From the NCBI GenBank assembly GCA_028522875.1, contig GCA_028522875.1_3659.1: DNA of 64,000 nucleotides; one strand, given 5' to 3'. The stretch is from a phage. The notes under the pieces are model-generated. The model was not told the origin of the DNA. It ran no database searches and saw only the letters and a program-made list of their open reading frames with translations. Of this stretch, positions 21,169 to 52,797 are shown piece by piece. The first letter of the stretch is position 1; each line of letters begins with the position of its first letter. Both the position numbers and the translations under genes were made by a program.

Positions 21169-21197
21169 TTGCTTTTGATGTATCTTTGTGGTAAAAT
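21169..21197 (+). promoter_or_regulatory. promoter TTGCTT-N17-TAAAAT with TGg extended -10
   Basis: -35 TTGCTT 21169-21174, -10 TAAAAT 21192-21197 preceded by TGG. Confidence 0.45.
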
Positions 21198-21215
21198 ACA
21201 TTAGTGAGGGATATA

Positions 21216-24690: not shown

Positions 24691-24719
24691 TTGACAATGC
24701 ACCATAATCATGGTAAAAT
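24691..24719 (+). promoter_or_regulatory. promoter TTGACA-N17-TAAAAT with TGg extended -10, inside tail module
   Basis: -35 TTGACA 24691-24696, -10 TAAAAT 24714-24719 preceded by TGG; 44 nt upstream of chaperone ATG. Confidence 0.5.
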
Positions 24720-24762
24720 ACACAAATATGGTGCACAACATGACTAATAAGGATGCTATAAA

Positions 24763-34990: not shown

Positions 34991-37900
34991 ATGGCTGATA
35001 TTAAAGTTGTCAGAATTGAATCTCTTCCTGCCACTACCGCAGTGACAGAGGATGATTACCTGGTTGTTCAACAACCAGACCTGACTCGTCGTGTAAAAAT
35101 TGGCGATGTTGTCCATGTGGATGGGACTGTTTCTCATGTAATCTCCTTTAAGGAAGGTGGTAAGTTAAACGGCCCAATGGATTTTGCCTACTTCGAAGAG
35201 GAAGACCTCTACCTGCGTTGGAAAGGCGAATTTCCGCACACCGTTCCTGCACTATCTTCACCGTACTCCGATGGTGGGATTACTGATGCTGCATGGATGG
35301 TATATACAGATCCATCATTAAGAGAGGAGCTGGAATCAACTATTGGCGCATCCATGATTATGACAGCTGAAGGTCAGTCTGTCCAGGATGTAATGGATGT
35401 TACAGTTAAGACCGCCAACGATGCTAAAGCACTTGCACAGCGGGTAGATTTTGGTACCGTGCACACTGTAGGCGATGTTATTCACCTTGTCAATTTTGTT
35501 GGCCCTGCAGTTATTGAAGAGGGAAGAACTACTAACTACCCTTCCGTAGCAGCTGGTGAAAAATTCCTGAACGGTGTGGTATCTCGTCGTGATACTACAA
35601 CTGTTGATGGTATTTTCCGTGGCGCTACCTCCGGAGCTATGTATACCATTGCAGTAACCAACGGTGTAGCAACAACAAAAAGAATAGCACTTCGTGATGA
35701 ATTTAAACGCCTAGAGGCAAACAACCCAACAAGAACCGTTATTCGTGCTGGTGATGATGTAAACACAGCCGGGTACTTGCAGCTTGATGCAACAGGTCGT
35801 TGGGGCATGTGGAACCAACAGACATCTTCATGGCAACCTCTTGCTATAGAGCAAGGTGGTACAGGTGCCAGAGATGCCGCAGGTGCACGTATTAATTTAG
35901 GAGCTTTTTATAAACAACGTGCAGCCCTTGAGGCAAATTTCAATATTAACAATTTGACTGGCAATCAGGATGGTGTATACTACCAGCCCATGACTGCCAA
36001 TGCCACCGAGGCAAATGGTTACCCAGCAGGTTCTGGTGCTGGTCACCTGATTGTTTGGCAGAACAATGCTAACGGCGGTGCAGGTTGTCGTCAGGAATAC
36101 TATCCATTCTCTAACGTAGATGTTTGGTATTTGAGAACCTATCAGGCCAACACAAATCAGTGGACTGCATGGCAGCCGATGGTCAGACCTCGTAACGATG
36201 ATACCTTCAGATCTCATATCGGCCTTGGTAAAAACAACTCACCAGCCTTCGGGCACCTTTACTTAGCTCAATACTCTGGAGATGTTAAATCTGCCTCAGG
36301 TATTCTCCATGGAGATAAATATAATACTGATGGTGTTCTTGAGCATGGTTATAGGATCTACTCTGAGGTAAGAAACGACAATAAGGCTTGGTTGACAATC
36401 CACCTGCACAAAGGTGCAAAAGGATCTGAAACCCATAGATATTTAGGTTTCCGCGAAGACGGCGTGCTAGACTGCCCTAAATATATGCAGGTTGGGGATC
36501 TTACTGGTCAGCTGACAAACTGGGGACTCGGAGAGTGGATCCGTAGTTCAGGAGCAGAAAGAGGCTTCTGGGGATCCAAGAAAGCCGCCAAGATGGTCAT
36601 CTGGGATGGTGGGATGGATGAATCCGGTAACGGCACTCTGGAATGGGGTGTTTATAACAACCGGAAGGCCAAGTGGGAACCTTTACCGCAAGCCGCAGGT
36701 GGTACTGGAGCTACAACTTTGGCAGAGGCTCAGAATCTGTTTAGAGTTCCTATAGCTGCAGGCGTAAAAGATTTCTTAACGCTGCCAAGAACCGCAGGGA
36801 TGGAAGATGGGAAATACTACCCGATTATAGTTAGAACAGATCCGTATTATGCTCCAACTACTGGCACCGATATTACCATAGTTACTAGGTCGTCATCTGG
36901 TGGTGACCCCATGAACTGTGCTACCTTACAGTGTCATTATAGAACTGGTGGGTGGACAGATAGAGGGGACTCTTTCTACGGAGTAGTAAATTTCTACCAG
37001 AATGAAAAAGCAATTCTTGGGATGGTTGCTCCAACAAGGGGTAAACAAGAATATGTTGCTTTCTATGCAGAGGCGCGTGCTTTCCCTGTCAGCATATACG
37101 CAAGTAGAAATGTTTTAGAGGTGTTTACCAAAGAACAAGACTACCAGGTTGGTTCTGTAACAAACAATCAGGACGGTGTTAAGTTTTGTGCTCCGTTAGA
37201 GTCAGCAGACTTAAATCTTGCGATAAAGGGTGATAATGTAACTAATACCAGACCTCTTGCGGAGTTTAAAGGAACATCAGGTTTTTACACAGGCGGTGGT
37301 ACTCAGTGGCACTACATCGGCACACCTGAACGCTATGCGGTGATGAGTAAAATGACCATGCCTAAAGTTGAGCTATGGGCAGATGGTATCGACTACCTAT
37401 GCCCTGGTAGTCAGACCACAAGGAAAGCACTGTTCTCTAATGCTGGATTCCAGGCAGCATCTGAAGGTACAGAGGACTTAATTAACAACACATTTACTTC
37501 CAAATGCGGCAAGGGTGCAGGTCTGAAAGGCCAGTCAGAGTTCAGGTCTACCCCAGAGGCTGGACAGGTAATTGTCAGAGATGTTGTTGGTTCCGCACAT
37601 AAGTTCTTTAACTTCAACAAAGACGGCACATTCTACCCTCCTGGCGGTTATGTTTGCCAGACAGGTGCGGATTGGAACAATCAGTTTGGTAACACAAACC
37701 CGTCAAAAATAATGGCTGGTAATGTTAACGGACCTGAAGGTTCCATGGTTGTAGCAGGGTTGTCGGTTGGTTTTTCTGGAAATTATGCATTCCAGATGGC
37801 TGGTCGTCTTGATCAGTTATACACCAGGTCTATTGAGGGTGGTAATCATAGAGCGTGGAACAAGGTAATCCAACACCGTGGTCAAGGCTTGGGTAATAGC

Positions 37901-39436
37901 AATCTTAATGATTACAAAGCTGATCGTGAAGGTATTTATCATCAAGAGGCAAACTCTAACGCCACAGCCGAAAGAAATTACCCGCCTGGGCAGCAGATGG
38001 CTGGTACATTGATTGTACTCAGAAACTCTGCTAACGAGGGCACGGGCTGTATTCAGATCTACAAGATGTACCTTGGTGGAACATGGGAAAGGTATTATAA
38101 TAACACTGGTAGTGGAATGGCTTGGAGTCCTTGGAAGAGAACAAGCTTCCCGGAAAGCACAACCGCCCCAGTTATGCCTGATCTTTGGTTACCTTTGACC
38201 TCCAACTTAAAACCTGCACTTGGCGAGGGTGAGATGGTATTCTCCAGACCATCTACAGCAACATACTTTTCTAAACGTGGTGTGATGGTTACTGCCCAGA
38301 ACGATCAGCCTAGGTTTGAAAGAGATGGTCTGCTTATCGAAGGGCAAAGGACAAACCTGATGCTTAACAGTGAAGACCCGAGTAAATGGGGAGCCAGTCA
38401 ACAGATTACTGTTGGTGGTACTGTAACAAACACTAACGGCACAAAAGGTGCAAGATTTACAGTAAACACTGCATCCGGTGTGGAAACAACAGCGTTAAAC
38501 CTTGCTACAGTTCCAGCCACCAGAGGTGCCGATGTAACAGGTGCTGAGAAATTCTGTACTGGGTCTATTATTGCAAGGGGAGGTAAAGCGAACCAGAGAT
38601 TACGTGTAAGATTCGACATGTATGACGGATCCACCACAGTATTCCAAGGTGACGCTTATGTTAACCTGTCAACACTTGAAGTTAAAACAACAGGTGGTGC
38701 AGCTGGGGGAATTAAAGTAAAAGCTGAGAGATGGCAAACAGCTGGACCTGCTTGGGTAAGGATTGCCGCTACGTTTGAGGCAGTGGCCTCTGACAAGAAT
38801 ATCGGGTGCCAGTTCCAGATTTCTCCACCTGAAGGTGCTCAGCATGTTGTAGGAGATTGGGTTGATGTTGCAATACCTCAATTTGAGCTAGGTTCTTGCG
38901 AGTCCTCGTTTATTCCCACAGGGTCTTCACCTGTAACTAGAGCGGCAGATCTTTGCAAATTTCCGATGACTGATAACTTAGCACCTAGACCGTTCACTAT
39001 TGCCGCTACTGTGGATGCTAACTGGAGAGGTTGGGGAAAAGCTCCTAACGCAGCCCCTAGGGTTATAGACACAGAAGGACACCAGTCGGGCGCACCTTTT
39101 ATCCTCGGGTTTGGTTCTGCAACAAATATTGCAGAGGATGGGTATCCATATTGTGATATAGGAGGATCTAACCGTAGGGTGTATGAGATGTGTAAGGTAC
39201 GTAAGTTAAGAATGGGGTTCAGAATAAAAGATGATGGTAAAACATGTTCTTTTGCTAATGGATTGATTAGCTCTGAAACGCAATCTTCTTGGGAGTTTCT
39301 TGCAGGAGGGGCTTTTATCAGGATAGGTGGTCAAACAGCATCTGGTGAAAGACACCTGTTCGGGCACATTAAGGATATCAAGCTTTGGAACTCGTCTTTG
39401 ACCGATACGCAACTTATGATGGAGAATATTGAATAA
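34991..39436 (+). CDS. long tail fibre protein (1481 aa)
   Basis: Size; N-terminal anchor domain shared with 31688 ORF; Gly/Thr/Asn-rich beta-rich composition; GGAGAAAG RBS. Confidence 0.55.
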   Translation: MADIKVVRIESLPATTAVTEDDYLVVQQPDLTRRVKIGDVVHVDGTVSHVISFKEGGKLNGPMDFAYFEEEDLYLRWKGEFPHTVPALSSPYSDGGITDAAWMVYTDPSLREELESTIGASMIMTAEGQSVQDVMDVTVKTANDAKALAQRVDFGTVHTVGDVIHLVNFVGPAVIEEGRTTNYPSVAAGEKFLNGVVSRRDTTTVDGIFRGATSGAMYTIAVTNGVATTKRIALRDEFKRLEANNPTRTVIRAGDDVNTAGYLQLDATGRWGMWNQQTSSWQPLAIEQGGTGARDAAGARINLGAFYKQRAALEANFNINNLTGNQDGVYYQPMTANATEANGYPAGSGAGHLIVWQNNANGGAGCRQEYYPFSNVDVWYLRTYQANTNQWTAWQPMVRPRNDDTFRSHIGLGKNNSPAFGHLYLAQYSGDVKSASGILHGDKYNTDGVLEHGYRIYSEVRNDNKAWLTIHLHKGAKGSETHRYLGFREDGVLDCPKYMQVGDLTGQLTNWGLGEWIRSSGAERGFWGSKKAAKMVIWDGGMDESGNGTLEWGVYNNRKAKWEPLPQAAGGTGATTLAEAQNLFRVPIAAGVKDFLTLPRTAGMEDGKYYPIIVRTDPYYAPTTGTDITIVTRSSSGGDPMNCATLQCHYRTGGWTDRGDSFYGVVNFYQNEKAILGMVAPTRGKQEYVAFYAEARAFPVSIYASRNVLEVFTKEQDYQVGSVTNNQDGVKFCAPLESADLNLAIKGDNVTNTRPLAEFKGTSGFYTGGGTQWHYIGTPERYAVMSKMTMPKVELWADGIDYLCPGSQTTRKALFSNAGFQAASEGTEDLINNTFTSKCGKGAGLKGQSEFRSTPEAGQVIVRDVVGSAHKFFNFNKDGTFYPPGGYVCQTGADWNNQFGNTNPSKIMAGNVNGPEGSMVVAGLSVGFSGNYAFQMAGRLDQLYTRSIEGGNHRAWNKVIQHRGQGLGNSNLNDYKADREGIYHQEANSNATAERNYPPGQQMAGTLIVLRNSANEGTGCIQIYKMYLGGTWERYYNNTGSGMAWSPWKRTSFPESTTAPVMPDLWLPLTSNLKPALGEGEMVFSRPSTATYFSKRGVMVTAQNDQPRFERDGLLIEGQRTNLMLNSEDPSKWGASQQITVGGTVTNTNGTKGARFTVNTASGVETTALNLATVPATRGADVTGAEKFCTGSIIARGGKANQRLRVRFDMYDGSTTVFQGDAYVNLSTLEVKTTGGAAGGIKVKAERWQTAGPAWVRIAATFEAVASDKNIGCQFQISPPEGAQHVVGDWVDVAIPQFELGSCESSFIPTGSSPVTRAADLCKFPMTDNLAPRPFTIAATVDANWRGWGKAPNAAPRVIDTEGHQSGAPFILGFGSATNIAEDGYPYCDIGGSNRRVYEMCKVRKLRMGFRIKDDGKTCSFANGLISSETQSSWEFLAGGAFIRIGGQTASGERHLFGHIKDIKLWNSSLTDTQLMMENIE

Positions 39437-41014: not shown

Positions 41015-41440
41015 ATGAAGGCAAAACCACGGTGTGTGGATTGGCAAACCAAACTTTTAGAAGTTATTAACGAAGAGTCTGATAAGGTATTTGAGTGGGG
41101 AATTAGCGATTGCTGCACTTTTGCAGCTAAGTGTATTGATGCACAGTACGGTACAAACTTTATCATGGAGTTTGAGGGAGAATATAAGACAGAAATTGAA
41201 AGCAGGAGATTGTGCATTAGGAAATTTGGGACAACTTACTTGCCATCAATTTTTGATAATTTTTTGGAAAGAAGGGATTCAAAAAAGCAGGTTCAGAGGG
41301 GAGATGTTGTAATATTTACTGGTAAAAATGGACCTACAGCCGGAATTTGGTGGGGAGGAATGGTGGTATCTAAAGGTAAGAAAGGCCTTGTATGGATAGA
41401 CTTTTCCGATATTGAAGTTTTAGATGTTTGGGGGTTATAA
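41015..41440 (+). CDS. small tail protein with Cys-containing motif (141 aa)
   Basis: GGGAGG RBS; WGISDCCTFAAKCI segment; position before large fibre-like gene. Confidence 0.3.
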   Translation: MKAKPRCVDWQTKLLEVINEESDKVFEWGISDCCTFAAKCIDAQYGTNFIMEFEGEYKTEIESRRLCIRKFGTTYLPSIFDNFLERRDSKKQVQRGDVVIFTGKNGPTAGIWWGGMVVSKGKKGLVWIDFSDIEVLDVWGL

Positions 41441-41442
41441 TA

Positions 41443-44400
41443 ATGCCTATTGCGTTGGTGGACTCCATCGTATCCTCTGCAAGGTCTTCAAGTTACGACT
41501 GGAATGCTTCAAAAGCTGCTCTTGCTGACAGTTTAAACACGGTGACAACAAGAACGCTTGATAAGATTTTTGAAGGTAACAGAGCTTACCGTGGTCAACA
41601 AGAAAGAAAGCAACTATTAAGATCATCTGCCGCCCCTTGCACTGTGGTGTACGGAGAAACAAGATCCTCCGGTCTGCTATCTTTTGTTGAGCAAGATAGC
41701 AGCAAAACACTGCATACAGCAATTGTTCTTGCAAGTCATCCGTTGGAAAGTGTAACAGATATTCTTATTGATGGCAATCCAATCTCTAAGTACGGAGATC
41801 TTGTAAGCTATGAGATTCACAATGACCCTAAGGTAGCAGATCAGTACATGAGGCAGCATTGCCCGTCTTGGTCTGTAGACATGATAGGCAGAGGACTGTG
41901 CTGGATCAGGGTTAGTTTTAAATTTGACCCAAACAAATTTCCATTCGGCCTTCCTAATGTTACAGTTCTTAAAAAGGGTAAAAAGGTTTACGATCCTCGA
42001 ACAGGGAAAAATGTATACTCAAACAACGCAGCTTTGATTATCCTTGACTATCTGAGAGTTTACCTTAAATGCCCTGATAGTACTATAAACTGGGAATCGT
42101 TTAAAGAGGCCGCAAATATCTGTGACGAGATGGTGCAGAATGCTGACGGGACCAGCGAAAGAAGGTACACCATAAACGGAGAGTTTGACATGGATGAACC
42201 CCCAGCAAACATAATGACAGAAATGCTGAAAGCTTGCGGTGGTGATCTTTGTTATGTTGCTGGTAAGTACGGCCTTTTAGTTGGTGCATATTATGGACCT
42301 GCAAGATACAGGCTTGGAGAAGAATGCGTTTCAGGTGAGGTTAAGATATACCCTGAAGCGTCTTTCGATAAAAGATCTAATACAATCACGGGTAGATTCA
42401 TAAGCCCTGCAAAAGGGTATTCTGAGACAGACTTTCCTTCTGTTTTTGTCCCAGAGTGGGTGGAAAAGGACAAAGAGAGAAAAGTAGTAGATATCGATTA
42501 CAGGTTCGTAACAAGTCCGTATCAGGCCCAAAGAATTTCTGCAATCTTCTTAAGACGTGCCAGAGCTGGTAGGATTATCGAAGTTACGTGCAATATGAGA
42601 GGGTTCAAGTTTAAACCTGGTCATTATGTAACCATAGATCTGCCAAGTATTGGTGTTGTTGGTCAAGAGATGAGGGTGCTTGAGTGGGAATTTACAAAGA
42701 AAGGTGGCGTTAAGGTAAAACTACGCCAAGATGCTAAGGAGTGGAATGACGCAACAGGTCAACTCCCAGATTCTGGTGACATAGATATTCCGGTCTCTCC
42801 GTCAGGTGTTGCACAACCTCAAAATTTTAGATACTCTGTACTACAGGCTGGAGAGCTAACTCACGGCGTTTTAGCTTGGGACAACGTTGGTGCTTACGCT
42901 TATAACATTGTTCAGGTTAAGAAGAATGGTGAAATAGTCTGGACAGCACAGACTGTCGAGCAGTTTGTGAGGGTTGAGGGTCTTACCCAGGGGTCATACA
43001 CAGCCACGGTGGTAGCAACATCGTACAAAGGTGGGGTTTCTCCTGAAGCTTATTGCGAGTTCAATATTCAGGCACCAGAACCACCTGCATCTGTAGAGGT
43101 TAAGCAGGGGTATTTTGCAATCACACTTATACCTCACAGCAGAGACCTGGCGAGTGTTAGTACTCAGTACGATTTCTGGACTTCAGGCACAACACGGCTT
43201 GCAAGTACAGCCAACAATATTGTTGAGACACAAGCAACTCGAATGGGTATAGGATCCACTTGGACCTCGGAGGGTTTGCAAAACGATAAAACCTATTACT
43301 GGTATATCAGGACAACAAATGCTTTTGGTTCATCTGCTTTTGTGGAGTGTGCAGCCCACTGTTACACATCCATAGAAGATCTTATGCCACAGATCGATGC
43401 TGAGTTCAAAAAGACAGAGACTTACAAAGAGCTTACCGCCAATCTCGATAATGCAGTCAAGGAAATGGATAAAAATGTTGGTGCAGTCAATGACCGTGTT
43501 ACTAGCATTTTTGAAGAGCTTGGTGATACAATAGAGGGTGTTGTCAGAGAGACGACAGAAAAATTTACAGGGGTTAATGGAGAAATTTCTGCCCTTAACA
43601 GTAAGCTGGTAGCAGCTCAGCAATCCTTTGACGATAAACTTGCAGCAGAGTCTGGTAGGCTTGGGTCACTAATCGAGACAACAAATAGATCAACCGTTGA
43701 TCTTGTTAATCGTAAAACTCAAGCATTGAGTGAGCAAATAACTGCAACTCAAGGTACTCTGCGGGAAGAGTTGAAGAACACTGAGAGCAAACTTAACTCC
43801 TCTATTCAAGAAACCAACAAGGCAACAACCGATCTGCTAAATAAGACTACGGAAGCTATTAAGCAGGATCTGGTGGCGGCTACAGGGAAGATTACCAAGC
43901 TGGAAGATGATGTGCAGAAAGAGGTTGCCAATCTGCAAGCATCTATTCAAGAAACTAATAGTACAACAGTTGATCTTGTTAATAATACAGCCACAGCGAT
44001 CCGTCAAGAACTTACCTCTGCAAAACAAGAAATTGTTGACGAAATGGGTAATATTGATGAGCTTAGGGCTACAGTATCTAATACCTCTAAAGCTGTAACA
44101 ACACTTGAGGGTAAAATAGATGCTCAGTGGGGAGCTAAGATTCAGGTTGACAGTCATGGTAATAAATATGTTGCAGGTATCCAGCTGGGCATGGAGGGGT
44201 CTGGGGGACAAGTTCAATCATACTTCATGGTTAGTGCAAACAACTTTGCGGTATACAACCCCGGAAACGGAACAGCAACCCTTGCTTTCGCAATCAAGAA
44301 CAACCAAGCGTTCTTGAAAGACGCTTTTATAGAGAATGGCACGATCTCCTCTGCCAAGATTGCACAAGAAATTTCGTCAAACAACTACGATGGCAACGGG

Positions 44401-45042
44401 TACCATAAATACGGTTGGTATATTAACAAGAACGGGCATGCCCAATTTATGGATGTGTGGGTGAAAGGCAACATTAACGCCAGTTCTGGTAACTTCACAG
44501 GGGCAGTTAACGCCACTAGTGGTACCTTCCGTGGAGATGTTTATGCCAATAATGGTAGCTTTAGAGGCACCATAGATGCAACCGGAGGTACATTCCGTGG
44601 TCGTGTAGAAGCTTCTGTTATCCGTGCTAACCAGTTTGAAGGTGCAATTGTTGCACACAGGACTTACGGAGATTGTGCTCCAGTATATAACTCCCAGCAG
44701 AGGGTTTGCCGTTGGAGGTGGAGATACGTAGATAACGTTTCAGGTCAAGGTAAGAACGTAACATTCTTCTTTAAACTGAACGGTACTCGTGCCAACTCCC
44801 AACTAAATGCGTGGATAGCTGGTCATCAACTCCTTGCTGGCAAGAAGTACGGAAACGACAATGATGGCATGTGTGCAGTTGGGATAACAGGTCTAGGTGA
44901 ACAGACTATAGACATTATTATTGAAATCTACACCCCGTGGTCAACGTCAAACGTGACAGGTATTACAATATCCTGTCCTACTGTGGTTGTTAGTCGTTCT
45001 AACTCCAGCTTCCAGGGACCTTGGAACGAGTCTCACGACTAA
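41443..45042 (+). CDS. large tail fibre / host-specificity-like protein (about 1199 aa) with internal repeats
   Basis: Three tandem about 42-aa repeats (IETTNRSTVDLVNRKTQALSEQI / IQETNKATTDLLNKTTEAIKQDL / IQETNSTTVDLVNNTATAIRQEL), beta-sandwich-like region, C-terminal short G-x-F-x-G repeats (SGNFTGAVNATSGTFRGDVYANNGSFRGTIDATGGTFRG). Confidence 0.5.
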   Translation: MPIALVDSIVSSARSSSYDWNASKAALADSLNTVTTRTLDKIFEGNRAYRGQQERKQLLRSSAAPCTVVYGETRSSGLLSFVEQDSSKTLHTAIVLASHPLESVTDILIDGNPISKYGDLVSYEIHNDPKVADQYMRQHCPSWSVDMIGRGLCWIRVSFKFDPNKFPFGLPNVTVLKKGKKVYDPRTGKNVYSNNAALIILDYLRVYLKCPDSTINWESFKEAANICDEMVQNADGTSERRYTINGEFDMDEPPANIMTEMLKACGGDLCYVAGKYGLLVGAYYGPARYRLGEECVSGEVKIYPEASFDKRSNTITGRFISPAKGYSETDFPSVFVPEWVEKDKERKVVDIDYRFVTSPYQAQRISAIFLRRARAGRIIEVTCNMRGFKFKPGHYVTIDLPSIGVVGQEMRVLEWEFTKKGGVKVKLRQDAKEWNDATGQLPDSGDIDIPVSPSGVAQPQNFRYSVLQAGELTHGVLAWDNVGAYAYNIVQVKKNGEIVWTAQTVEQFVRVEGLTQGSYTATVVATSYKGGVSPEAYCEFNIQAPEPPASVEVKQGYFAITLIPHSRDLASVSTQYDFWTSGTTRLASTANNIVETQATRMGIGSTWTSEGLQNDKTYYWYIRTTNAFGSSAFVECAAHCYTSIEDLMPQIDAEFKKTETYKELTANLDNAVKEMDKNVGAVNDRVTSIFEELGDTIEGVVRETTEKFTGVNGEISALNSKLVAAQQSFDDKLAAESGRLGSLIETTNRSTVDLVNRKTQALSEQITATQGTLREELKNTESKLNSSIQETNKATTDLLNKTTEAIKQDLVAATGKITKLEDDVQKEVANLQASIQETNSTTVDLVNNTATAIRQELTSAKQEIVDEMGNIDELRATVSNTSKAVTTLEGKIDAQWGAKIQVDSHGNKYVAGIQLGMEGSGGQVQSYFMVSANNFAVYNPGNGTATLAFAIKNNQAFLKDAFIENGTISSAKIAQEISSNNYDGNGYHKYGWYINKNGHAQFMDVWVKGNINASSGNFTGAVNATSGTFRGDVYANNGSFRGTIDATGGTFRGRVEASVIRANQFEGAIVAHRTYGDCAPVYNSQQRVCRWRWRYVDNVSGQGKNVTFFFKLNGTRANSQLNAWIAGHQLLAGKKYGNDNDGMCAVGITGLGEQTIDIIIEIYTPWSTSNVTGITISCPTVVVSRSNSSFQGPWNESHD

Positions 45043-45085: not shown

Positions 45086-45114
45086 TTGACTATTGTTACA
45101 AAATTTGGTAAAAT
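45086..45114 (+). promoter_or_regulatory. promoter TTGACT-N17-TAAAAT with TGg extended -10
   Basis: -35 TTGACT 45086-45091, -10 TAAAAT 45109-45114 preceded by TGG. Confidence 0.5.
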
Positions 45115-45147
45115 ACCTTGTAGAGATTTTCATACCGGAGGAGTGAC

Positions 45148-49420: not shown

Positions 49421-50461
49421 ATGTCAAAACCTAGTTTTCCATTAGAGATTTGGGCAGAGGAGGATCAGGTTCTGCCTAACACCCACAGACAGAACAGGCT
49501 ACGCCCGATTGATGATTTGTGGAGAAAAGGTTGGGATCTTGGTCAAAAGCCCTCATGTGAAGAACTTAACTATATTTTCAATATGCTCGGAACTTGGGCA
49601 AAATACATTGCTGACGAGCAGATCCCCGCTCAAGAAGGCCGTTATCTGGTACGTGATAATAACTTGAGTGATCTTTTGAACATTCCTGTTGCCCGTAGAA
49701 ACCTTGGGATTATTACTAAGGAAGAAGCAGACGCCAGGTATGTAAAAGTTACAGGTGATACAATGACAGGCCCGTTGGGTTTGCAACGTATCAACTTTAA
49801 AGCTGCCGAGACAGATAAGGCTTGGATAGAGACAACTATTGGCCCAGATAAGACAACTCTCGACTTTGGGCTAAGTGATAATACTGGGTCGTTTGATGAT
49901 GGTGGTACATCTACAGTAGATGCGTTTCGTTGGAGATTCCAGCCAACTCAGCCGGATATTAATCCAGAGTTCACTTTGATGTACCTTAACGCGATCACGG
50001 CTAACCGTGCGCTGTTGAAAGTGGTCGGCAATGTTGAAGTTGTCGATAACATGAGGTGCAATAACCTTACTATCAGCAATACAGCAACATTCACCAACTG
50101 TAATGTGGCTAGTCAGTTGACGACTGGGTCAGTGTATGTTAATGGAGGTGCAAGTTGTGACAGTATGGTTGTAAGAAGTCAGCACTGTGTTGTCGGTAAC
50201 AGAAATGTGGTGCGCTCTGTGAATGGAGTGACGGCTAACGGTAACGGTGATGTAACAATCACTATCCCGCAGACAGGTGTGCAAGACATCAGAATCGGTG
50301 CAAGACTTGTTGACGGCGTTTCCGAATCTCCAATTCGCAACGGCTACGTTGTCACAGGCTGGCATTTCGGTGACAAAAAAGAGATGCGTGGTTCAACCTA
50401 CTGGGCAGGACCTTTACAAAAACTTGTAAACGGTCAATGGATCACTGTTAATTATGCATAG
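49421..50461 (+). CDS. tail fibre protein, paralog A (346 aa)
   Basis: KVTGDTMTGPL fibre motif; N- and C-termini (…YWAGPLQKLVNGQWITVNYA) homologous to ORF 51476. Confidence 0.55.
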   Translation: MSKPSFPLEIWAEEDQVLPNTHRQNRLRPIDDLWRKGWDLGQKPSCEELNYIFNMLGTWAKYIADEQIPAQEGRYLVRDNNLSDLLNIPVARRNLGIITKEEADARYVKVTGDTMTGPLGLQRINFKAAETDKAWIETTIGPDKTTLDFGLSDNTGSFDDGGTSTVDAFRWRFQPTQPDINPEFTLMYLNAITANRALLKVVGNVEVVDNMRCNNLTISNTATFTNCNVASQLTTGSVYVNGGASCDSMVVRSQHCVVGNRNVVRSVNGVTANGNGDVTITIPQTGVQDIRIGARLVDGVSESPIRNGYVVTGWHFGDKKEMRGSTYWAGPLQKLVNGQWITVNYA

Positions 50462-50475
50462 ATCGGAGGACTAGC

Positions 50476-51060
50476 ATGAAAATACTTCAAGAGTTTAAAC
50501 TTTACCAACCGGGATCTGGCGAATACCACTCCAACAAGGAAACCAAGGAGCTGACCCCTCAAGAGGTTGAGGATTACACCGCATACACTGGGTATTTTTT
50601 ACGTAATGATGATGGCGATTGGTATGTGCAGTCACGAACATTACGACAAGAAAATCCGGGTTGTATCTTCCTACTTGTTGACGAGAAGGGAATTCTTAAG
50701 ACATCTACAGAAGAACCTGATGCCTTATGGCCTGCTCCAGGTCTTCGTGTGGTTATCGCCAAAAAAGAAGAGGTACCAGAAAACATTATGCTTCACCACG
50801 ACGCTTTGCGTTTAGTTGGTGATGAATTTGTCACAGATAATGAATTCTTTGTTCAACAGGCAGAGGGTGTCATAGAGACAGAACTTGCTTGGGCTACTGC
50901 TAGAATTGGTGCCTATCAAGACATGATTGACCTTGAATATGATCTTACTGATGACCAGAAACGTAACATCAGAGATTTGAAAATGTACAGGGTAAAACTT
51001 CTTGAAATAGATACATCTAAAGCCCCTGACATTTTCTTCCCGGAGCGACCTACCCTCTAA
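50476..51060 (+). CDS. possible tail fibre assembly/accessory protein (194 aa)
   Basis: Sits between paralogous fibre genes; GGAGGA RBS; no motif. Confidence 0.3.
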   Translation: MKILQEFKLYQPGSGEYHSNKETKELTPQEVEDYTAYTGYFLRNDDGDWYVQSRTLRQENPGCIFLLVDEKGILKTSTEEPDALWPAPGLRVVIAKKEEVPENIMLHHDALRLVGDEFVTDNEFFVQQAEGVIETELAWATARIGAYQDMIDLEYDLTDDQKRNIRDLKMYRVKLLEIDTSKAPDIFFPERPTL

Positions 51061-51071
51061 GAGGAGGTGTT

Positions 51072-51386
51072 GTGGAGTTGGATTTGGCGGCATTGTACGG
51101 TATCTGCATGGGTACCGTTGTCCCGATCTGTGTATGGGCTTTCAACCAGTGGCACACCAAATGGAAAGGCATTTCCAAGAGGTTAGATGAACTGGAGAAA
51201 GACCTCATCTTAGTGAAAAACAGTATGGTTACAAAAGATAAACTTGATTCCGTTATCGAGACCCGGTTAAGCAAGCTAGAGGCCGATATTAACGACCTTA
51301 AGCAGGATGTCAGGACAGATGTCTCCGGTATCCGAGCTGATGTACAAAAGATTTTGCACATGCTCGTAGAGCATAGTAAAAGGTAA
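51072..51386 (+). CDS. single-TMD coiled-coil membrane protein (104 aa); holin/lysis-regulator candidate
   Basis: GTG start behind AAGAGGAGG; N-terminal TM helix LAALYGICMGTVVPICVWAF then charged helical region. Confidence 0.3.
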   Translation: MELDLAALYGICMGTVVPICVWAFNQWHTKWKGISKRLDELEKDLILVKNSMVTKDKLDSVIETRLSKLEADINDLKQDVRTDVSGIRADVQKILHMLVEHSKR

Positions 51387-51416
51387 ACAAAGGTCAGAAC
51401 GGAAAGGACTCCGTTC

Positions 51417-51444
51417 TTGCATTTTGTTCTCTAAAGTGTTAAAA
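51417..51444 (+). promoter_or_regulatory. promoter TTGCAT-N16-TAAAAT with TGt extended -10, overlapping upstream hairpin
   Basis: Hairpin GAACGGA-AAGGAC-TCCGTTC (51397-51416) followed by -35 TTGCAT 51417-51422, -10 TAAAAT 51439-51444. Confidence 0.45.
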
Positions 51445-51475
51445 TAGTCCTAAGGAATTTTCTCAGGAGAACGCG

Positions 51476-52519
51476 ATGACTAAACCAGTTATCCCTCTTG
51501 ATATTTGGGCCAATCAGGATGTTGTGCTTGAAAATACGGGAGAGTTGAATAAGTCTCAACCAAAAAAAGAAGAGAGATTGAAAGGTTGGGATATGACACA
51601 AAGAGTGGCATGTGAAGTTGTTAACTTTGAACTTCACATGCTTTCTGCGTGGTTAAAGCATCTAACAGAAGATGTTGTCCCAGGATGGGATAATAGATTC
51701 TTAAGGGTCACTAATAATCTAGCAGACGTTCCAGACAAAGCTGCTGCACGTCAAGTTCTCAATGTATACTCGCCTGAAGAAATGGACGATTTGTATGTTG
51801 ACAAGTCTGGAGACATAATGACTCAGACTCAAACTTTAGGCCTTCAAAGAATCGAGTTTGCATCTGCGTCAACAGACAATGCGGCAATATATACCACCAT
51901 AACCTCAGACAAGACGATGATGGATTTCTGGATTATGGACAACATCGGTGGTGCTGACGGCACAGATCTTGATGATCCTTCTCACCAAATAGACGGGTTC
52001 CGTTGGAGATTTCAGCCTTCTGGTGGGCAGCCTGTGTTTTCGGCTATGAAGCTCAATGCTATAACTGCCAACCGTGCAAGACTGGCTATCCAAGGAAATC
52101 TTGAATGCAACGATGCAAAAAGTTCCTCTGCAAATGCCAATGCAGTTACTATACCAAGAGCCACTGTTAATGGACAACAATCCTGCGGAAGCGCTCAAAT
52201 AGGTGGAAGAGTTGATTGTAACGATGAAACCGTCAGGGGCCAATATGCAACAGTTGGTGGAAGAAACGTGGTCCGCAGGGTAAATGGTAACGGCGCAGAC
52301 AGTAGTGGTAACCTTACTATTCCTATGCCTAGCAGAGGGGTTGATGATGTAAGGATAGCAAACCGTTTCAAAACCACCTACAGAGAGTCAAGAGTCTACC
52401 CTGGACATGTGATGTGCTCTGGTAACTACGCTTATAAACACCCTTATCAAGGTGACTACTGGACAGGTGCTATCCAAAAACTTGTAAATGGTCAATGGAT
52501 CACTATATCTTATGCTTAA
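51476..52519 (+). CDS. tail fibre protein, paralog B (347 aa)
   Basis: Homologous to ORF 49421 at N-terminus (PLDIWANQD...RLKGWD), middle (DGFRWRFQP...LNAITANRA) and C-terminus (YWTGAIQKLVNGQWITISYA); central region divergent. Confidence 0.55.
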   Translation: MTKPVIPLDIWANQDVVLENTGELNKSQPKKEERLKGWDMTQRVACEVVNFELHMLSAWLKHLTEDVVPGWDNRFLRVTNNLADVPDKAAARQVLNVYSPEEMDDLYVDKSGDIMTQTQTLGLQRIEFASASTDNAAIYTTITSDKTMMDFWIMDNIGGADGTDLDDPSHQIDGFRWRFQPSGGQPVFSAMKLNAITANRARLAIQGNLECNDAKSSSANANAVTIPRATVNGQQSCGSAQIGGRVDCNDETVRGQYATVGGRNVVRRVNGNGADSSGNLTIPMPSRGVDDVRIANRFKTTYRESRVYPGHVMCSGNYAYKHPYQGDYWTGAIQKLVNGQWITISYA

Positions 52520-52530
52520 AAAGAGGGTAA

Positions 52531-52797
52531 ATGAAACTAACTCAGTTTTTATGGGGACTGGTTGCGGCATCTGATGACCCTACGAAAGTATCCCAATCTA
52601 AGCTATGGTCGAACATAGGCATGGCGGTGATGACTGGGGTGTTTATTCATATGGGGTATAATGATACGCTTCCTGAATGGTATGCGTGGATATATGCACC
52701 TTCAGTAGCCTGCCCCCAGCTTATTAGCAAATTCATCTCGCTCCGGTGGGGTTGCCAGCACCCTGACCACGTTAAAAACGAAGAGCAAAAAGCTTAA
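52531..52797 (+). CDS. small hydrophobic protein (88 aa); holin candidate
   Basis: Two to three hydrophobic segments (FLWGLVAA, NIGMAVMTGVFIHMGY, WYAWIYAPSVA); AAGAGGG RBS. Confidence 0.25.
   Translation: MKLTQFLWGLVAASDDPTKVSQSKLWSNIGMAVMTGVFIHMGYNDTLPEWYAWIYAPSVACPQLISKFISLRWGCQHPDHVKNEEQKA

What the first reader, a model, noticed from the sequence alone, without database searches (positions are those of the whole stretch)
49421..52519. Tandem paralogous tail-fibre genes with conserved ends and divergent centres
ORFs 49421 (346 aa) and 51476 (347 aa) align at the N-terminus, at a central DxFRWRFQP…LNAITANRA block and at the C-terminal …QKLVNGQWIT(V/I)xYA, but differ in between. They are separated by two small genes and the second has its own promoter. 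This suggests a duplicated receptor-binding module for dual receptor use or host-range expansion.
Basis: seen in the sequence. Interest (0 to 1): 0.5.

Follow-up and report, generated by a model that had tools for sequence, protein, structure and literature searches.

The report
Two paralogous rV5 short tail fibres
These are the two already-described short tail fibre genes (gp33 and gp30) of an rV5-like E. coli phage: a real, old gene duplication, but one that was reported in 2013 and 2021, and whose two separate roles are still untested.

Summary
The window is a Vequintavirus (rV5-like coliphage, about 99% identical to rV5). ORFs 49421-50461 and 51476-52519 are rV5 gp33 and gp30. They are true paralogues: 42% identity over the full length, E 2e-92. 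The similarity is continuous and not confined to the ends; the N-terminal 110 aa is one of the less conserved parts (38%).

Kropinski et al. 2013 already reported the paralogy, the virion presence of both proteins and of the chaperone gp32, the late promoter P030 before gp30, and the idea of two LPS chemotypes. Maffei et al. 2021 called them two short tail fibre paralogues homologous to Mu GpS/GpU.

New here:
- The second copy occurs only in genus Vequintavirus. It sits where sister genera carry a 157-aa membrane-protein gene.
- gp33 is the canonical orthologue; gp30 is the faster-evolving extra copy.
- Both are under strong purifying selection and nearly invariant across about 117 genomes, so neither is a host-range-variable cassette.
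- What lastingly separates the copies is the N-terminal baseplate-attachment domain. An uncultured two-copy lineage has near-identical tips on both copies.

Dual receptor use remains plausible for rV5 but is unproven. Already known; low interest.

The parts
49421..50461 (+). Short tail fibre, copy 1 (rV5 gp33 orthologue, 346 aa). This is the canonical orthologue of the single short tail fibre found in related phage genera.
   Evidence: 99-100% identical to gp33 of rV5-like phages. PHROG 4465, E 1e-171. Residues 1-108 match the phiTE short tail fibre N-terminus (PDB 9CUY), E 1e-19. Residues 286-343 match Mu tail fibre S residues 440-501 (PDB 5YVQ), E 2e-6. The only significant fold match of the AF2 model is Mu S, E 9e-10. 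In the N-terminal tree it clusters with the single-copy orthologues at 100% bootstrap.
50476..51060 (+). Tail fibre assembly protein / chaperone (rV5 gp32, 194 aa). It is the only Tfa in the locus and probably serves both fibres.
   Evidence: Pfam Caudo_TAP PF02413, E 9e-12, above the curated cutoff, on residues 121-192. PHROG 136 'tail fiber assembly protein', E 2e-36. Detected in virions according to PMC3606486. No Tfa follows the second copy.
51072..51386 (+). Small protein with one N-terminal transmembrane segment and a coiled coil (rV5 gp31, 104 aa). Function unknown. A similar gene follows the Tfa in all relatives examined.
   Evidence: PHROG 5345, unknown function, E 1e-48. Homologue of Av-05 gene 00102, E 5e-17. 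Listed as a membrane protein with 1 TMD in Table S3 of PMC3606486. Only sub-threshold coiled-coil Pfam hits.
51396..51417 (+). Terminator-like hairpin directly after gp31, overlapping the -35-like hexamer.
   Evidence: Stem of 8-9 pairs followed by TGCATTTTGT. Folds at -16 kcal/mol, z-score -3.85. Weaker in lineage L011 and absent in L010, so it is not a conserved feature.
51417..51446 (+). Promoter of the second fibre gene (P030 of rV5): TTGCAT, 17 nt, TAAAAT with a TGn extension. It contains the rV5 late motif TGTTAAAATA.
   Evidence: Sequence read. Identical to P030 in Table S4 of PMC3606486. The motif TGKTAAAATA occurs 4 times in the window against 0.47 expected; all four are intergenic, on the + strand and just upstream of + strand ORFs. 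TTGCAT-N17-TAAAAT is kept in L010 and L011 although their spacers have diverged. Activity was not measured.
51476..52519 (+). Short tail fibre, copy 2 (rV5 gp30 orthologue, 347 aa). This is the Vequintavirus-specific, faster-evolving extra copy.
   Evidence: 100% identical to rV5 gp30. PHROG 4465, E 1e-165. Residues 1-83 match the phiTE short tail fibre, E 1e-9. The only significant fold hit is Mu S, E 1e-5, from a low-confidence model. It is 30-43% identical to family members, against 37-50% for copy 1. It occupies the slot of a 157-aa membrane-protein gene in sister genera.
52531..52797 (+). Small membrane protein (rV5 gp29, 88 aa). Function unknown. It marks the conserved right-hand border of the slot that holds copy 2.
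   Evidence: PHROG 1322 'membrane protein', E 3e-32. 51% identical to Av-05 gene 00104, E 9e-27.

Best explanation
The region encodes two co-expressed, virion-borne short tail fibres of the phage Mu GpS type, plus the single Tfa chaperone that probably folds both.

Copy 1 (gp33) is the orthologue of the one short tail fibre of related phages. In phi92 that fibre is fibre III: six trimers hang from the wedge protein and are proposed to mediate irreversible binding to the LPS core. Copy 2 (gp30) is an old extra copy found only in genus Vequintavirus. It sits where sister genera carry a 157-aa membrane-protein gene, and it is transcribed from its own late promoter.

Shown:
- the paralogy and the domain homologies;
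- the genus-restricted distribution and the slot replacement;
- strong purifying selection on both copies;
- a conserved promoter motif.

Inferred:
- Each paralogue forms its own homotrimer.
- The conserved last ~20 residues let one chaperone serve both.
- The lastingly different N-terminal domains give the two fibres different docking on the baseplate.
- In rV5-type phages the different tips (residues ~291-325) let the two fibres contact different LPS-core epitopes. Copy 1 would keep the ancestral specificity.
For: - Identity with rV5 gp33/gp32/gp31/gp30/gp29 and the same gene order.
- Paralogy: E 2e-92.
- Both N-termini match the phiTE short tail fibre. Residues 3-92 of that fibre were modelled bound to the wedge 1 protein (PMC11972413).
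- The phi92 orthologue gp147 is fibre III: six copies on the C-terminal domain of wedge gp145, proposed irreversible adsorption (PMC13450770).
- The copy 1 tip matches Mu S 440-501 by sequence. Mu S is the only significant fold hit for both models.
- Tfa: Caudo_TAP.
- gp30, gp32 and gp33 were detected in virions by mass spectrometry (PMC3606486).
- Two copies in about 116-117 Vequintavirus records. One copy in Avunavirus, Seunavirus, Mydovirus, Henunavirus, Phapecoctavirus and Justusliebigvirus.
- The 157-aa gene is found in 107 phage records, apparently none of them rV5-like, and is absent from the window.
- The copy 1 tip (291-325) is 54-60% identical to the Av-05, Seunavirus NINP13076, Phapecoctavirus and Justusliebigvirus tips, against 32-41% for copy 2.
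- dN/dS is 0.00-0.04 for both copies.
- The promoter motif is conserved in divergent lineages.
- The N-terminal tree separates the copy 1 and copy 2 clades at 100% bootstrap.
- LL12 needs Glc I of the outer core (PMC7229145). All BASEL Vequintavirinae fail on waaC and waaG mutants (PMC8594841).
Against: - No experiment assigns a receptor, a baseplate position or a stoichiometry to either copy.
- In lineage L010 the two tips are 87% identical, so differing tips are not a constant feature of the pair.
- Genetics on K-12 shows one shared LPS-core requirement for all Vequintavirinae, single-copy relatives included. This gives no sign of a second receptor.
- The AF2 monomer models are of low to moderate confidence (pLDDT 68 and 61.5), and no trimer or complex could be modelled.
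- The full-length tree joins the two copies with only 54% bootstrap. The N-terminal tree puts copy 2 outside the clade of copy 1 plus the other genera. In-lineage duplication with rapid divergence cannot therefore be told apart from acquisition from an unsampled relative.
- The copy 2 tip has no sequence-level match to Mu S.
Confidence: 0.6

Rival explanations
1. Pure dual-receptor model (first reader; Kropinski 2013). The two fibres dock identically and differ only in what they bind, each recognising a different LPS chemotype. The duplication exists to widen host range.
For: Tips differ in rV5-type phages: 26% identity over residues 291-325 and 45% over 286-346. The copy 1 tip is Mu-S-like by sequence and the copy 2 tip is not. 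Mu uses alternative S/S' tips for different LPS cores (established knowledge; 8JU3). rV5-like phages have a broad host range (PMC8594841).
Against: The N-terminal attachment domain is the most consistently paralogue-specific part: 38% identity between copies, against 57-87% within each copy type across lineages. The L010 lineage keeps two copies although their tips are 87% identical. Both copies are nearly invariant across about 117 phages. Single-copy relatives show the same LPS-core dependence on K-12.
Confidence: 0.2
2. Competition for one docking site. Both paralogues bind the same six wedge sites, so virions carry a mixed or stochastic set of the two fibres (bet-hedging), with the ratio set by the separate promoter.
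For: Both N-termini are homologous to the wedge-binding N-terminus of the phiTE short tail fibre. phi92 has only six fibre III positions. The separate promoter P030 could tune the dosage.
Against: The N-terminal domains are only 38% identical, and each type is conserved as its own clade at 100% bootstrap. This pattern suggests different binding partners rather than one shared site. There are no stoichiometry data.
Confidence: 0.12
3. Heterotrimer. gp33 and gp30 co-assemble into one mixed fibre.
For: Equal length (346 and 347 aa), a shared C-terminal motif and one chaperone. Conserved blocks lie at matching positions.
Against: Only 42% identity, with indels in the shaft (206-245). The homologous Mu fibre S and the phiTE and phi92 short fibres are described as trimers of a single gene product. 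The two genes have separate transcription units. Single-copy relatives do without a partner.
Confidence: 0.04
4. Redundant spare. Copy 2 adds nothing distinct and is kept only as a dosage or backup copy.
For: K-12 genetics shows one LPS-core requirement. Copy 2 evolves faster: dN 0.160 against 0.092 in the comparison with L011.
Against: Synonymous sites between the paralogues are saturated, so the pair is old. Yet copy 2 is intact in every genome seen, with dN/dS of about 0-0.04 and its own conserved promoter. Its N-terminal signature is conserved across three divergent lineages.
Confidence: 0.04

Closest known systems
Escherichia phage rV5 gp33 and gp30 with gp32 (Kropinski et al. 2013, PMC3606486). 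[quoted passage not shown] 2021 (PMC8594841).
   Same: This is the same thing: 99-100% protein identity and identical gene order. The 42.3% paralogy, the virion presence, promoter P030 and the 'two LPS chemotypes' idea are all published.
   Different: Nothing of substance differs in the window. The comparative points added here were not found in those papers: the slot replacement, the paralogue-specific N-termini and the tip homogenisation in an uncultured lineage.
Phage Mu tail fibre S/S' with chaperones U/U' (PDB 5YVQ, 8JU3).
   Same: The copy 1 tip aligns to Mu S 440-501, including the P-x-Q-K-x-(V/I)-N-G-x-W motif. Mu S is the only significant fold hit for both models. A Caudo_TAP chaperone gene lies directly downstream. 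Both systems offer two alternative fibre specificities against LPS cores (for rV5 this is inferred).
   Different: Mu switches tips by inverting the G segment, makes one tip per virion, and has a dedicated chaperone for each tip. Here two complete fibre genes are expressed together and there is only one chaperone. The N-terminal attachment domain is unrelated to that of Mu: it is of the phiTE/phi92 type.
phi92 gp147 (fibre III) and the phiTE short tail fibre (PDB 9CUY/9MJN).
   Same: Homologous N-terminal wedge-binding domain. Same position after the two wedge genes and before a Tfa. Proposed role in irreversible adsorption.
   Different: Those phages have a single copy. The phiTE fibre is 554 aa with a coiled coil and Ig-like domains, and phiTE is flagellotropic. 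phi92-type fibres are only 24-28% identical overall.
T4 gp12 short tail fibre.
   Same: The proposed job is the same: LPS-core binding fibres on the baseplate that commit the phage to infection. Kropinski 2013 reported an HHpred similarity to PDB 1PDI.
   Different: No gp12 match was found here by sequence or by fold at the thresholds used. T4 has one gp12 gene, and its fibres are folded under the baseplate. The chaperone system also differs: T4 uses gp57A (established knowledge).

Membership tests
Vequintavirus short tail fibre pair (rV5 gp33/gp30; PHROG 4465) | Full-length, near-identical match to rV5 gp33 and gp30. | tested here: met
   tblastn gives 99.4% (gp33) and 100% (gp30) identity to rV5. 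PHROG 4465 matches over 1-342/342, E 1e-171 and 1e-165.
Vequintavirus short tail fibre pair (rV5 gp33/gp30; PHROG 4465) | Gene order: wedge genes, gp34, fibre, Tfa, gp31, fibre, gp29, gp28. | tested here: met
   Identical order in the window, rV5 and AlexBoehm.
Vequintavirus short tail fibre pair (rV5 gp33/gp30; PHROG 4465) | Both proteins are present in the virion. | not testable with these tools
   Mass spectrometry on rV5 detected gp30, gp32 and gp33 (PMC3606486). There are no data for this isolate.
Mu GpS-type tail fibre with a Tfa (Caudo_TAP) chaperone | C-terminal tip domain homologous to Mu S. | tested here: inconclusive
   Copy 1: met by sequence (E 2e-6 full length, 3e-4 for the tip alone) and by fold (E 9e-10). 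Copy 2: no sequence match. Its fold match, E 1e-5, comes from a model with pLDDT 61.5.
Mu GpS-type tail fibre with a Tfa (Caudo_TAP) chaperone | A Tfa gene lies immediately downstream of the fibre gene. | tested here: inconclusive
   Met for copy 1: 50476-51060, PF02413 at 45.7 bits against a cutoff of 22.1. Not met for copy 2, which is followed by an 88-aa membrane protein.
Mu GpS-type tail fibre with a Tfa (Caudo_TAP) chaperone | Homotrimer whose folding depends on the Tfa. | not testable with these tools
   Only monomer AF2 prediction was available.
phiTE/phi92-type short tail fibre (N-terminal wedge-binding domain) | N-terminal ~90 residues homologous to the modelled phiTE short tail fibre N-terminus. 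| tested here: met
   phmmer against 9CUY chain c: copy 1 residues 1-108, E 1e-19; copy 2 residues 1-83, E 1e-9.
phiTE/phi92-type short tail fibre (N-terminal wedge-binding domain) | Physical attachment to the wedge protein, six trimers per baseplate. | not testable with these tools
   Shown for phiTE and phi92 only. For a phage with two paralogues the arrangement is unknown.
T4 gp12 short tail fibre | Detectable homology to gp12 (PDB 1PDI and related entries). | tested here: not met
   No gp12 chain appeared among the PDB sequence hits at E up to 1 or the fold hits at E up to 10. The HHpred hit reported in 2013 was not reproduced with these tools, and HHpred itself was not available.

The most novel reading that the evidence does not exclude
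The two paralogues are not mainly two receptor-binding variants. They are two structurally distinct fibre sets, defined by paralogue-specific N-terminal docking domains. This would mean two different attachment sites on the baseplate, for example twelve short fibres or an ordered alternation. Their distal tips would behave as exchangeable modules that can be homogenised or swapped between the paralogues by gene conversion, as seen in lineage L010. A single chaperone, carrying a lineage-specific N-terminal insertion, would serve both.
Probability: 0.3. Interest if true: 0.4.

Novelty: already known. Interest (0 to 1): 0.18.

Why it matters
rV5-like phages are among the most often isolated coliphages. 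They are used in O157 typing, biocontrol and therapy cocktails. Their short tail fibres probably make the irreversible contact with the LPS core, so knowing what each paralogue does would help to predict and engineer host range and to anticipate resistance through LPS-core mutations.

The duplication itself is textbook-level for this genus and adds nothing new. What remains open is where the second fibre sits on the baseplate and whether it sees a second epitope. The comparative results here narrow that question:
- the tips are strongly conserved;
- the N-termini are paralogue-specific;
- one natural lineage has matching tips on both copies.

They suggest the right experiments but do not settle anything.

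Tried and rejected
- **Family scans.** Pfam and NCBIfam gave no family above threshold for either fibre, gp31, gp29 or the 157-aa protein. Only PHROGs were informative.
- **Structure models.** The AF2 monomer models reached only pLDDT 68 and 61.5, too weak for anything beyond the Mu S fold match. Trimers and complexes could not be modelled.
- **Full-length tree.** The NJ tree could not resolve duplication against acquisition: 54% bootstrap for copy 1 plus copy 2.
- **Dating the duplication.** dS is saturated between the paralogues and between lineages, so the duplication could not be dated. Region-wise dN/dS was mostly undefined.
- **Hairpin as terminator.** The hairpin after gp31 is not conserved in L010 or L011, so it was rejected as a conserved terminator.
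- **Remnant of the 157-aa gene.** None was found in the window.
- **Closer relative of copy 2.** No source outside the group was found that could have donated it. The nearest are other Vequintavirus-like copy 2 proteins at 46-78% identity.
- **Chance similarity.** Rejected as an explanation.
- **Pseudogene or decaying copy.** Rejected.
- **Functional literature.** Searches found no study separating the two paralogues.
Full report
**What the window is.** A 4-kb query around the finding matches 117 phage records. Of these, 113 match over at least 80% of its length, at 90-99% identity. The best matches (about 99%) include Escherichia phage V5/rV5 and other members of genus Vequintavirus. In the annotated rV5 and AlexBoehm (BASEL Bas56) records the ORFs correspond as follows:

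| Window coordinates | rV5 gene | Annotation |
|---|---|---|
| 49421-50461 | gp33 | 'tail fiber' / 'short tail fiber' |
| 50476-51060 | gp32 | tail fibre assembly protein |
| 51072-51386 | gp31 | hypothetical, 1 TMD |
| 51476-52519 | gp30 | 'tail fiber' / 'short tail fiber' |
| 52531-52797 | gp29 | membrane protein |

**Checking the observation.** The two ORFs have the stated coordinates and lengths. BLASTP gives 42% identity and 58% positives over the whole length, E 2e-92, so the paralogy is real and not low-complexity.

The picture of conserved ends and divergent centres is only partly right.
- In 20-30-residue windows identity runs from 25% to 65% without any unalignable stretch.
- The best-kept blocks are gp33 residues ~106-135, 160-205 (FRWRFQP...LNAITANRA), 246-275 (VGxRNVVRxVNG) and the last ~20 residues (YWxGxxQKLVNGQWITxxYA, 71%).
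- The N-terminal 110 residues are only 38% identical, less than the central block at 55%.
- The most divergent stretches are ~46-100, 206-245 (with indels) and 291-325.
- At the DNA level only two short tracts stand out: 63 nt at 83% identity at the 3' ends, and 28 nt at 86% at the FRWRFQP block. Third-codon-position identity elsewhere is near random. The duplication is therefore old.

**The promoter claim.** The 89-bp gap before the second copy holds three elements:
- a hairpin at 51396-51417 (-16 kcal/mol, z -3.85);
- TTGCAT (51417-51422), 17 nt, then TAAAAT (51440-51445) with a TGn extension;
- an AGGAG ribosome-binding site at 51465-51469.

The string TTGTTCTCTAAAGTGTTAAAATAGTCCTAAGGAATTT is exactly the putative late promoter P030 listed for rV5 in 2013. 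The motif TGKTAAAATA occurs four times in the window against 0.47 expected. All four are intergenic, on the + strand and just upstream of + strand ORFs. In two divergent relatives (L010, L011) TTGCAT-N17-TAAAAT is kept although the spacer has changed, whereas the hairpin is weak or absent. The promoter is therefore well supported by conservation, though its activity has not been measured. The terminator is not a conserved feature.

**What is already published.**
- Kropinski et al. 2013 (PMC3606486) reported that gp30 and gp33 share 42.3% identity and that both resemble T4 gp12 by HHpred. [quoted passage not shown]
- Maffei et al. [quoted passage not shown] They related them to the single short tail fibre of phi92-like phages and Phapecoctavirus, and ultimately to Mu GpS with its chaperone GpU.
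- I found no study that separates the functions of the two paralogues.

The finding is therefore already known in both observation and interpretation.

**Domain anatomy.**
- Both proteins fall in PHROG 4465 'tail fiber protein' over their full length. Pfam and NCBIfam have no model for them.
- The N-terminal ~83-108 residues match the short tail fibre of phage phiTE (PDB 9CUY/9MJN), at E 1e-19 for copy 1 and 1e-9 for copy 2. In the phiTE cryo-EM structure residues 3-92 of that fibre form the joint bound to the wedge 1 protein.
- In phi92 the single orthologue gp147 was identified in 2026 as fibre III. Six copies hang from the C-terminal domain of wedge gp145, and the fibre is proposed to mediate irreversible adsorption.
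- The last ~60 residues of copy 1 align to the extreme C-terminus of Mu fibre S (440-501) and more weakly to S'. The copy 2 tip has no such sequence match.
- AF2 monomer models are of modest confidence (pLDDT 68 and 61.5). They show the same secondary-structure order: N-terminal helices, a beta domain at ~120-205, an extended segment, and a C-terminal beta domain. For both, Mu S (5YVQ) is the only significant PDB fold match, at E 9e-10 and 1e-5.
- gp32 carries the conserved C-terminal Caudo_TAP domain. In Tfa proteins the variable N-terminal domain binds the fibre and the conserved C-terminal helices drive trimerisation (PMC9608196).
- No Tfa gene follows copy 2, so one chaperone probably serves both fibres. 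The shared C-terminal motif is the obvious common handle. This is inference.

**Distribution and origin.**
- tblastn finds both copies in about 116-117 rV5-like records. Copy 1 is at least 99% identical in 94 records and 95-99% in 22. Copy 2 is at least 99% in 40, 95-99% in 76 and 90-95% in 1. Neither is a variable cassette; copy 2 varies slightly more.
- Every other genus examined has a single copy followed by a Tfa: Avunavirus, Seunavirus, Mydovirus, Henunavirus, Phapecoctavirus and Justusliebigvirus.
- In the single-copy Vequintavirinae the order is fibre, Tfa, a gp31-like gene, a 157-aa polytopic membrane-protein gene, a gp29-like gene, then a gp28-like fibre.
- In rV5-like phages the 157-aa gene is missing and copy 2 sits in its place. 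The 157-aa protein is found in 107 phage records, apparently none of them rV5-like, and nothing like it is in the window.
- Copy 1 is more similar than copy 2 to all family members: 37-50% against 30-43%. Its tip (291-325) is 54-60% identical to the Av-05, Seunavirus NINP13076, Phapecoctavirus and Justusliebigvirus tips, against 32-41% for copy 2.
- Copy 1 is thus the canonical orthologue and copy 2 the derived addition.
- A full-length NJ tree joins the two copies with only 54% bootstrap. In-lineage duplication is likely but not proven.

**Selection.** Comparing the window with rV5 and AlexBoehm gives dN/dS of 0.03 and 0.03 for copy 1, and 0.00 and 0.04 for copy 2. Against the divergent lineage L011, dN is 0.092 for copy 1 and 0.160 for copy 2. 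In both copies the tip is the slowest-changing region (dN about 0.05). Both genes are clearly maintained, and the tips behave like binders of a conserved target.

**Divergent two-copy lineages.** A protein search recovered uncultured relatives with the same two-copy layout from read-archive assemblies.
- L011-L013 have a copy 2 that is 78% identical to gp30. L010 has a copy 2 only 50% identical. No GenBank phage record holds a closer match to either variant than the ordinary rV5-like phages do.
- Region-wise trees are informative. For residues 1-110 all copy 1 proteins cluster with the single-copy orthologues of other genera (100% bootstrap), and all copy 2 proteins form a separate clade (100%).
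- For the tip (286-346), the L010-type copy 2 carries a copy-1-type tip. It is 87% identical to its own copy 1 and 35% identical to gp30.
- In L010 the last ~40 codons are 90-100% identical in protein and 83-88% in DNA. Third positions there are 60-70% identical, against about 35% elsewhere. This indicates later homogenisation or module exchange.
- The feature that lastingly separates the paralogues is therefore the baseplate-proximal domain, not the receptor-binding tip. The pair is kept even where the tips match.
- The Tfa of all three two-copy lineages has a 12-20-residue N-terminal insertion that the seven single-copy relatives lack. This is a single-clade correlation, so it is weak evidence.

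**Most likely mechanism.** Two kinds of homotrimeric short fibre are made late in infection. Both are folded with gp32 and mounted on the baseplate periphery. Copy 1 takes the canonical wedge position and keeps the ancestral LPS-core specificity. Copy 2, with its diverged N-terminus, docks differently. In rV5-type phages it presents a different tip that may contact another epitope of the LPS core.

The homologies, distribution, selection and promoter conservation are shown. Virion presence and the LPS-core requirement come from the literature. Homotrimer formation, the shared chaperone, distinct docking and distinct epitopes are inferred. Rival readings cannot be excluded without structural or genetic work: identical docking with two receptors, competition for one site, heterotrimers, or simple redundancy. 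Each fits the N-terminal pattern, the L010 lineage or the selection data less well.

**Verdict.** The added comparative points are incremental. Interest is low.

Noticed in passing
window 51387-52530, compared with L003 5449-5922, L004 5497-5970, L005 5461-5934, L006 5347-5820 and L008 5272-5745: Sister genera of Vequintavirinae carry a conserved 157-aa polytopic membrane-protein gene between the gp31-like and gp29-like genes. It is found in 107 phage records. rV5-like phages lack it and have the second short tail fibre gene in that slot. The function of this trio of small membrane proteins inside a tail-fibre operon is unknown.
   Followed up: partly
window 51072-51386 (gp31), L007 5098-5433 and L009 5055-5396: A ~104-113-aa protein with an N-terminal transmembrane segment and a coiled coil follows the Tfa gene in every relative examined, including Phapecoctavirus and Justusliebigvirus. 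It has only sub-threshold Pfam hits (for example XhlA and other coiled-coil families) and no assigned function.
   Followed up: partly
window 50476-51060 compared with the Tfa genes of L003-L011: The Tfa chaperone of the three two-fibre lineages (window, L011, L010) has a 12-20-residue insertion near the N-terminus, roughly residues 17-40. All seven single-fibre relatives lack it. It may be linked to serving two fibres, but it reflects a single clade.
   Followed up: partly
L010 3913-4953 and 6001-7065 (SRR24653873, 135-kb contig): An uncultured Vequintavirus-like lineage has two short tail fibre paralogues that are 51% identical overall but 90-100% identical over the last ~40 residues, with raised third-codon-position identity there. 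This suggests gene conversion or tip exchange between the paralogues. No GenBank phage record holds a closer match to its second fibre copy than ordinary rV5-like phages do (best 49% identity).
   Followed up: yes
public records MG0656xx (hits H1-H6, H11-H16 and others): Sixteen to twenty-one GenBank records named 'Campylobacter phage', with host given as C. jejuni, match this E. coli rV5-like sequence; the ones listed are 98.6-99% identical. They are probably mislabelled or contaminant genomes.
   Followed up: no
window 34991-39436 and 41428-45042: The large lateral tail fibre genes homologous to rV5 gp41 and gp37 differ in length from rV5: about 1481 aa plus an extra 110-aa ORF against 1272 aa, and about 1200 aa against 1279 aa. 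This fits the allelic variation reported for these genes in the BASEL study, and it contrasts with the invariant short fibres.
   Followed up: no
window 21189-21198, 24711-24720, 45106-45115 and 51437-51446: The rV5 late-promoter motif TGKTAAAATA occurs four times against 0.47 expected. Every occurrence is intergenic, on the + strand and directly upstream of a + strand structural gene.
   Followed up: partly
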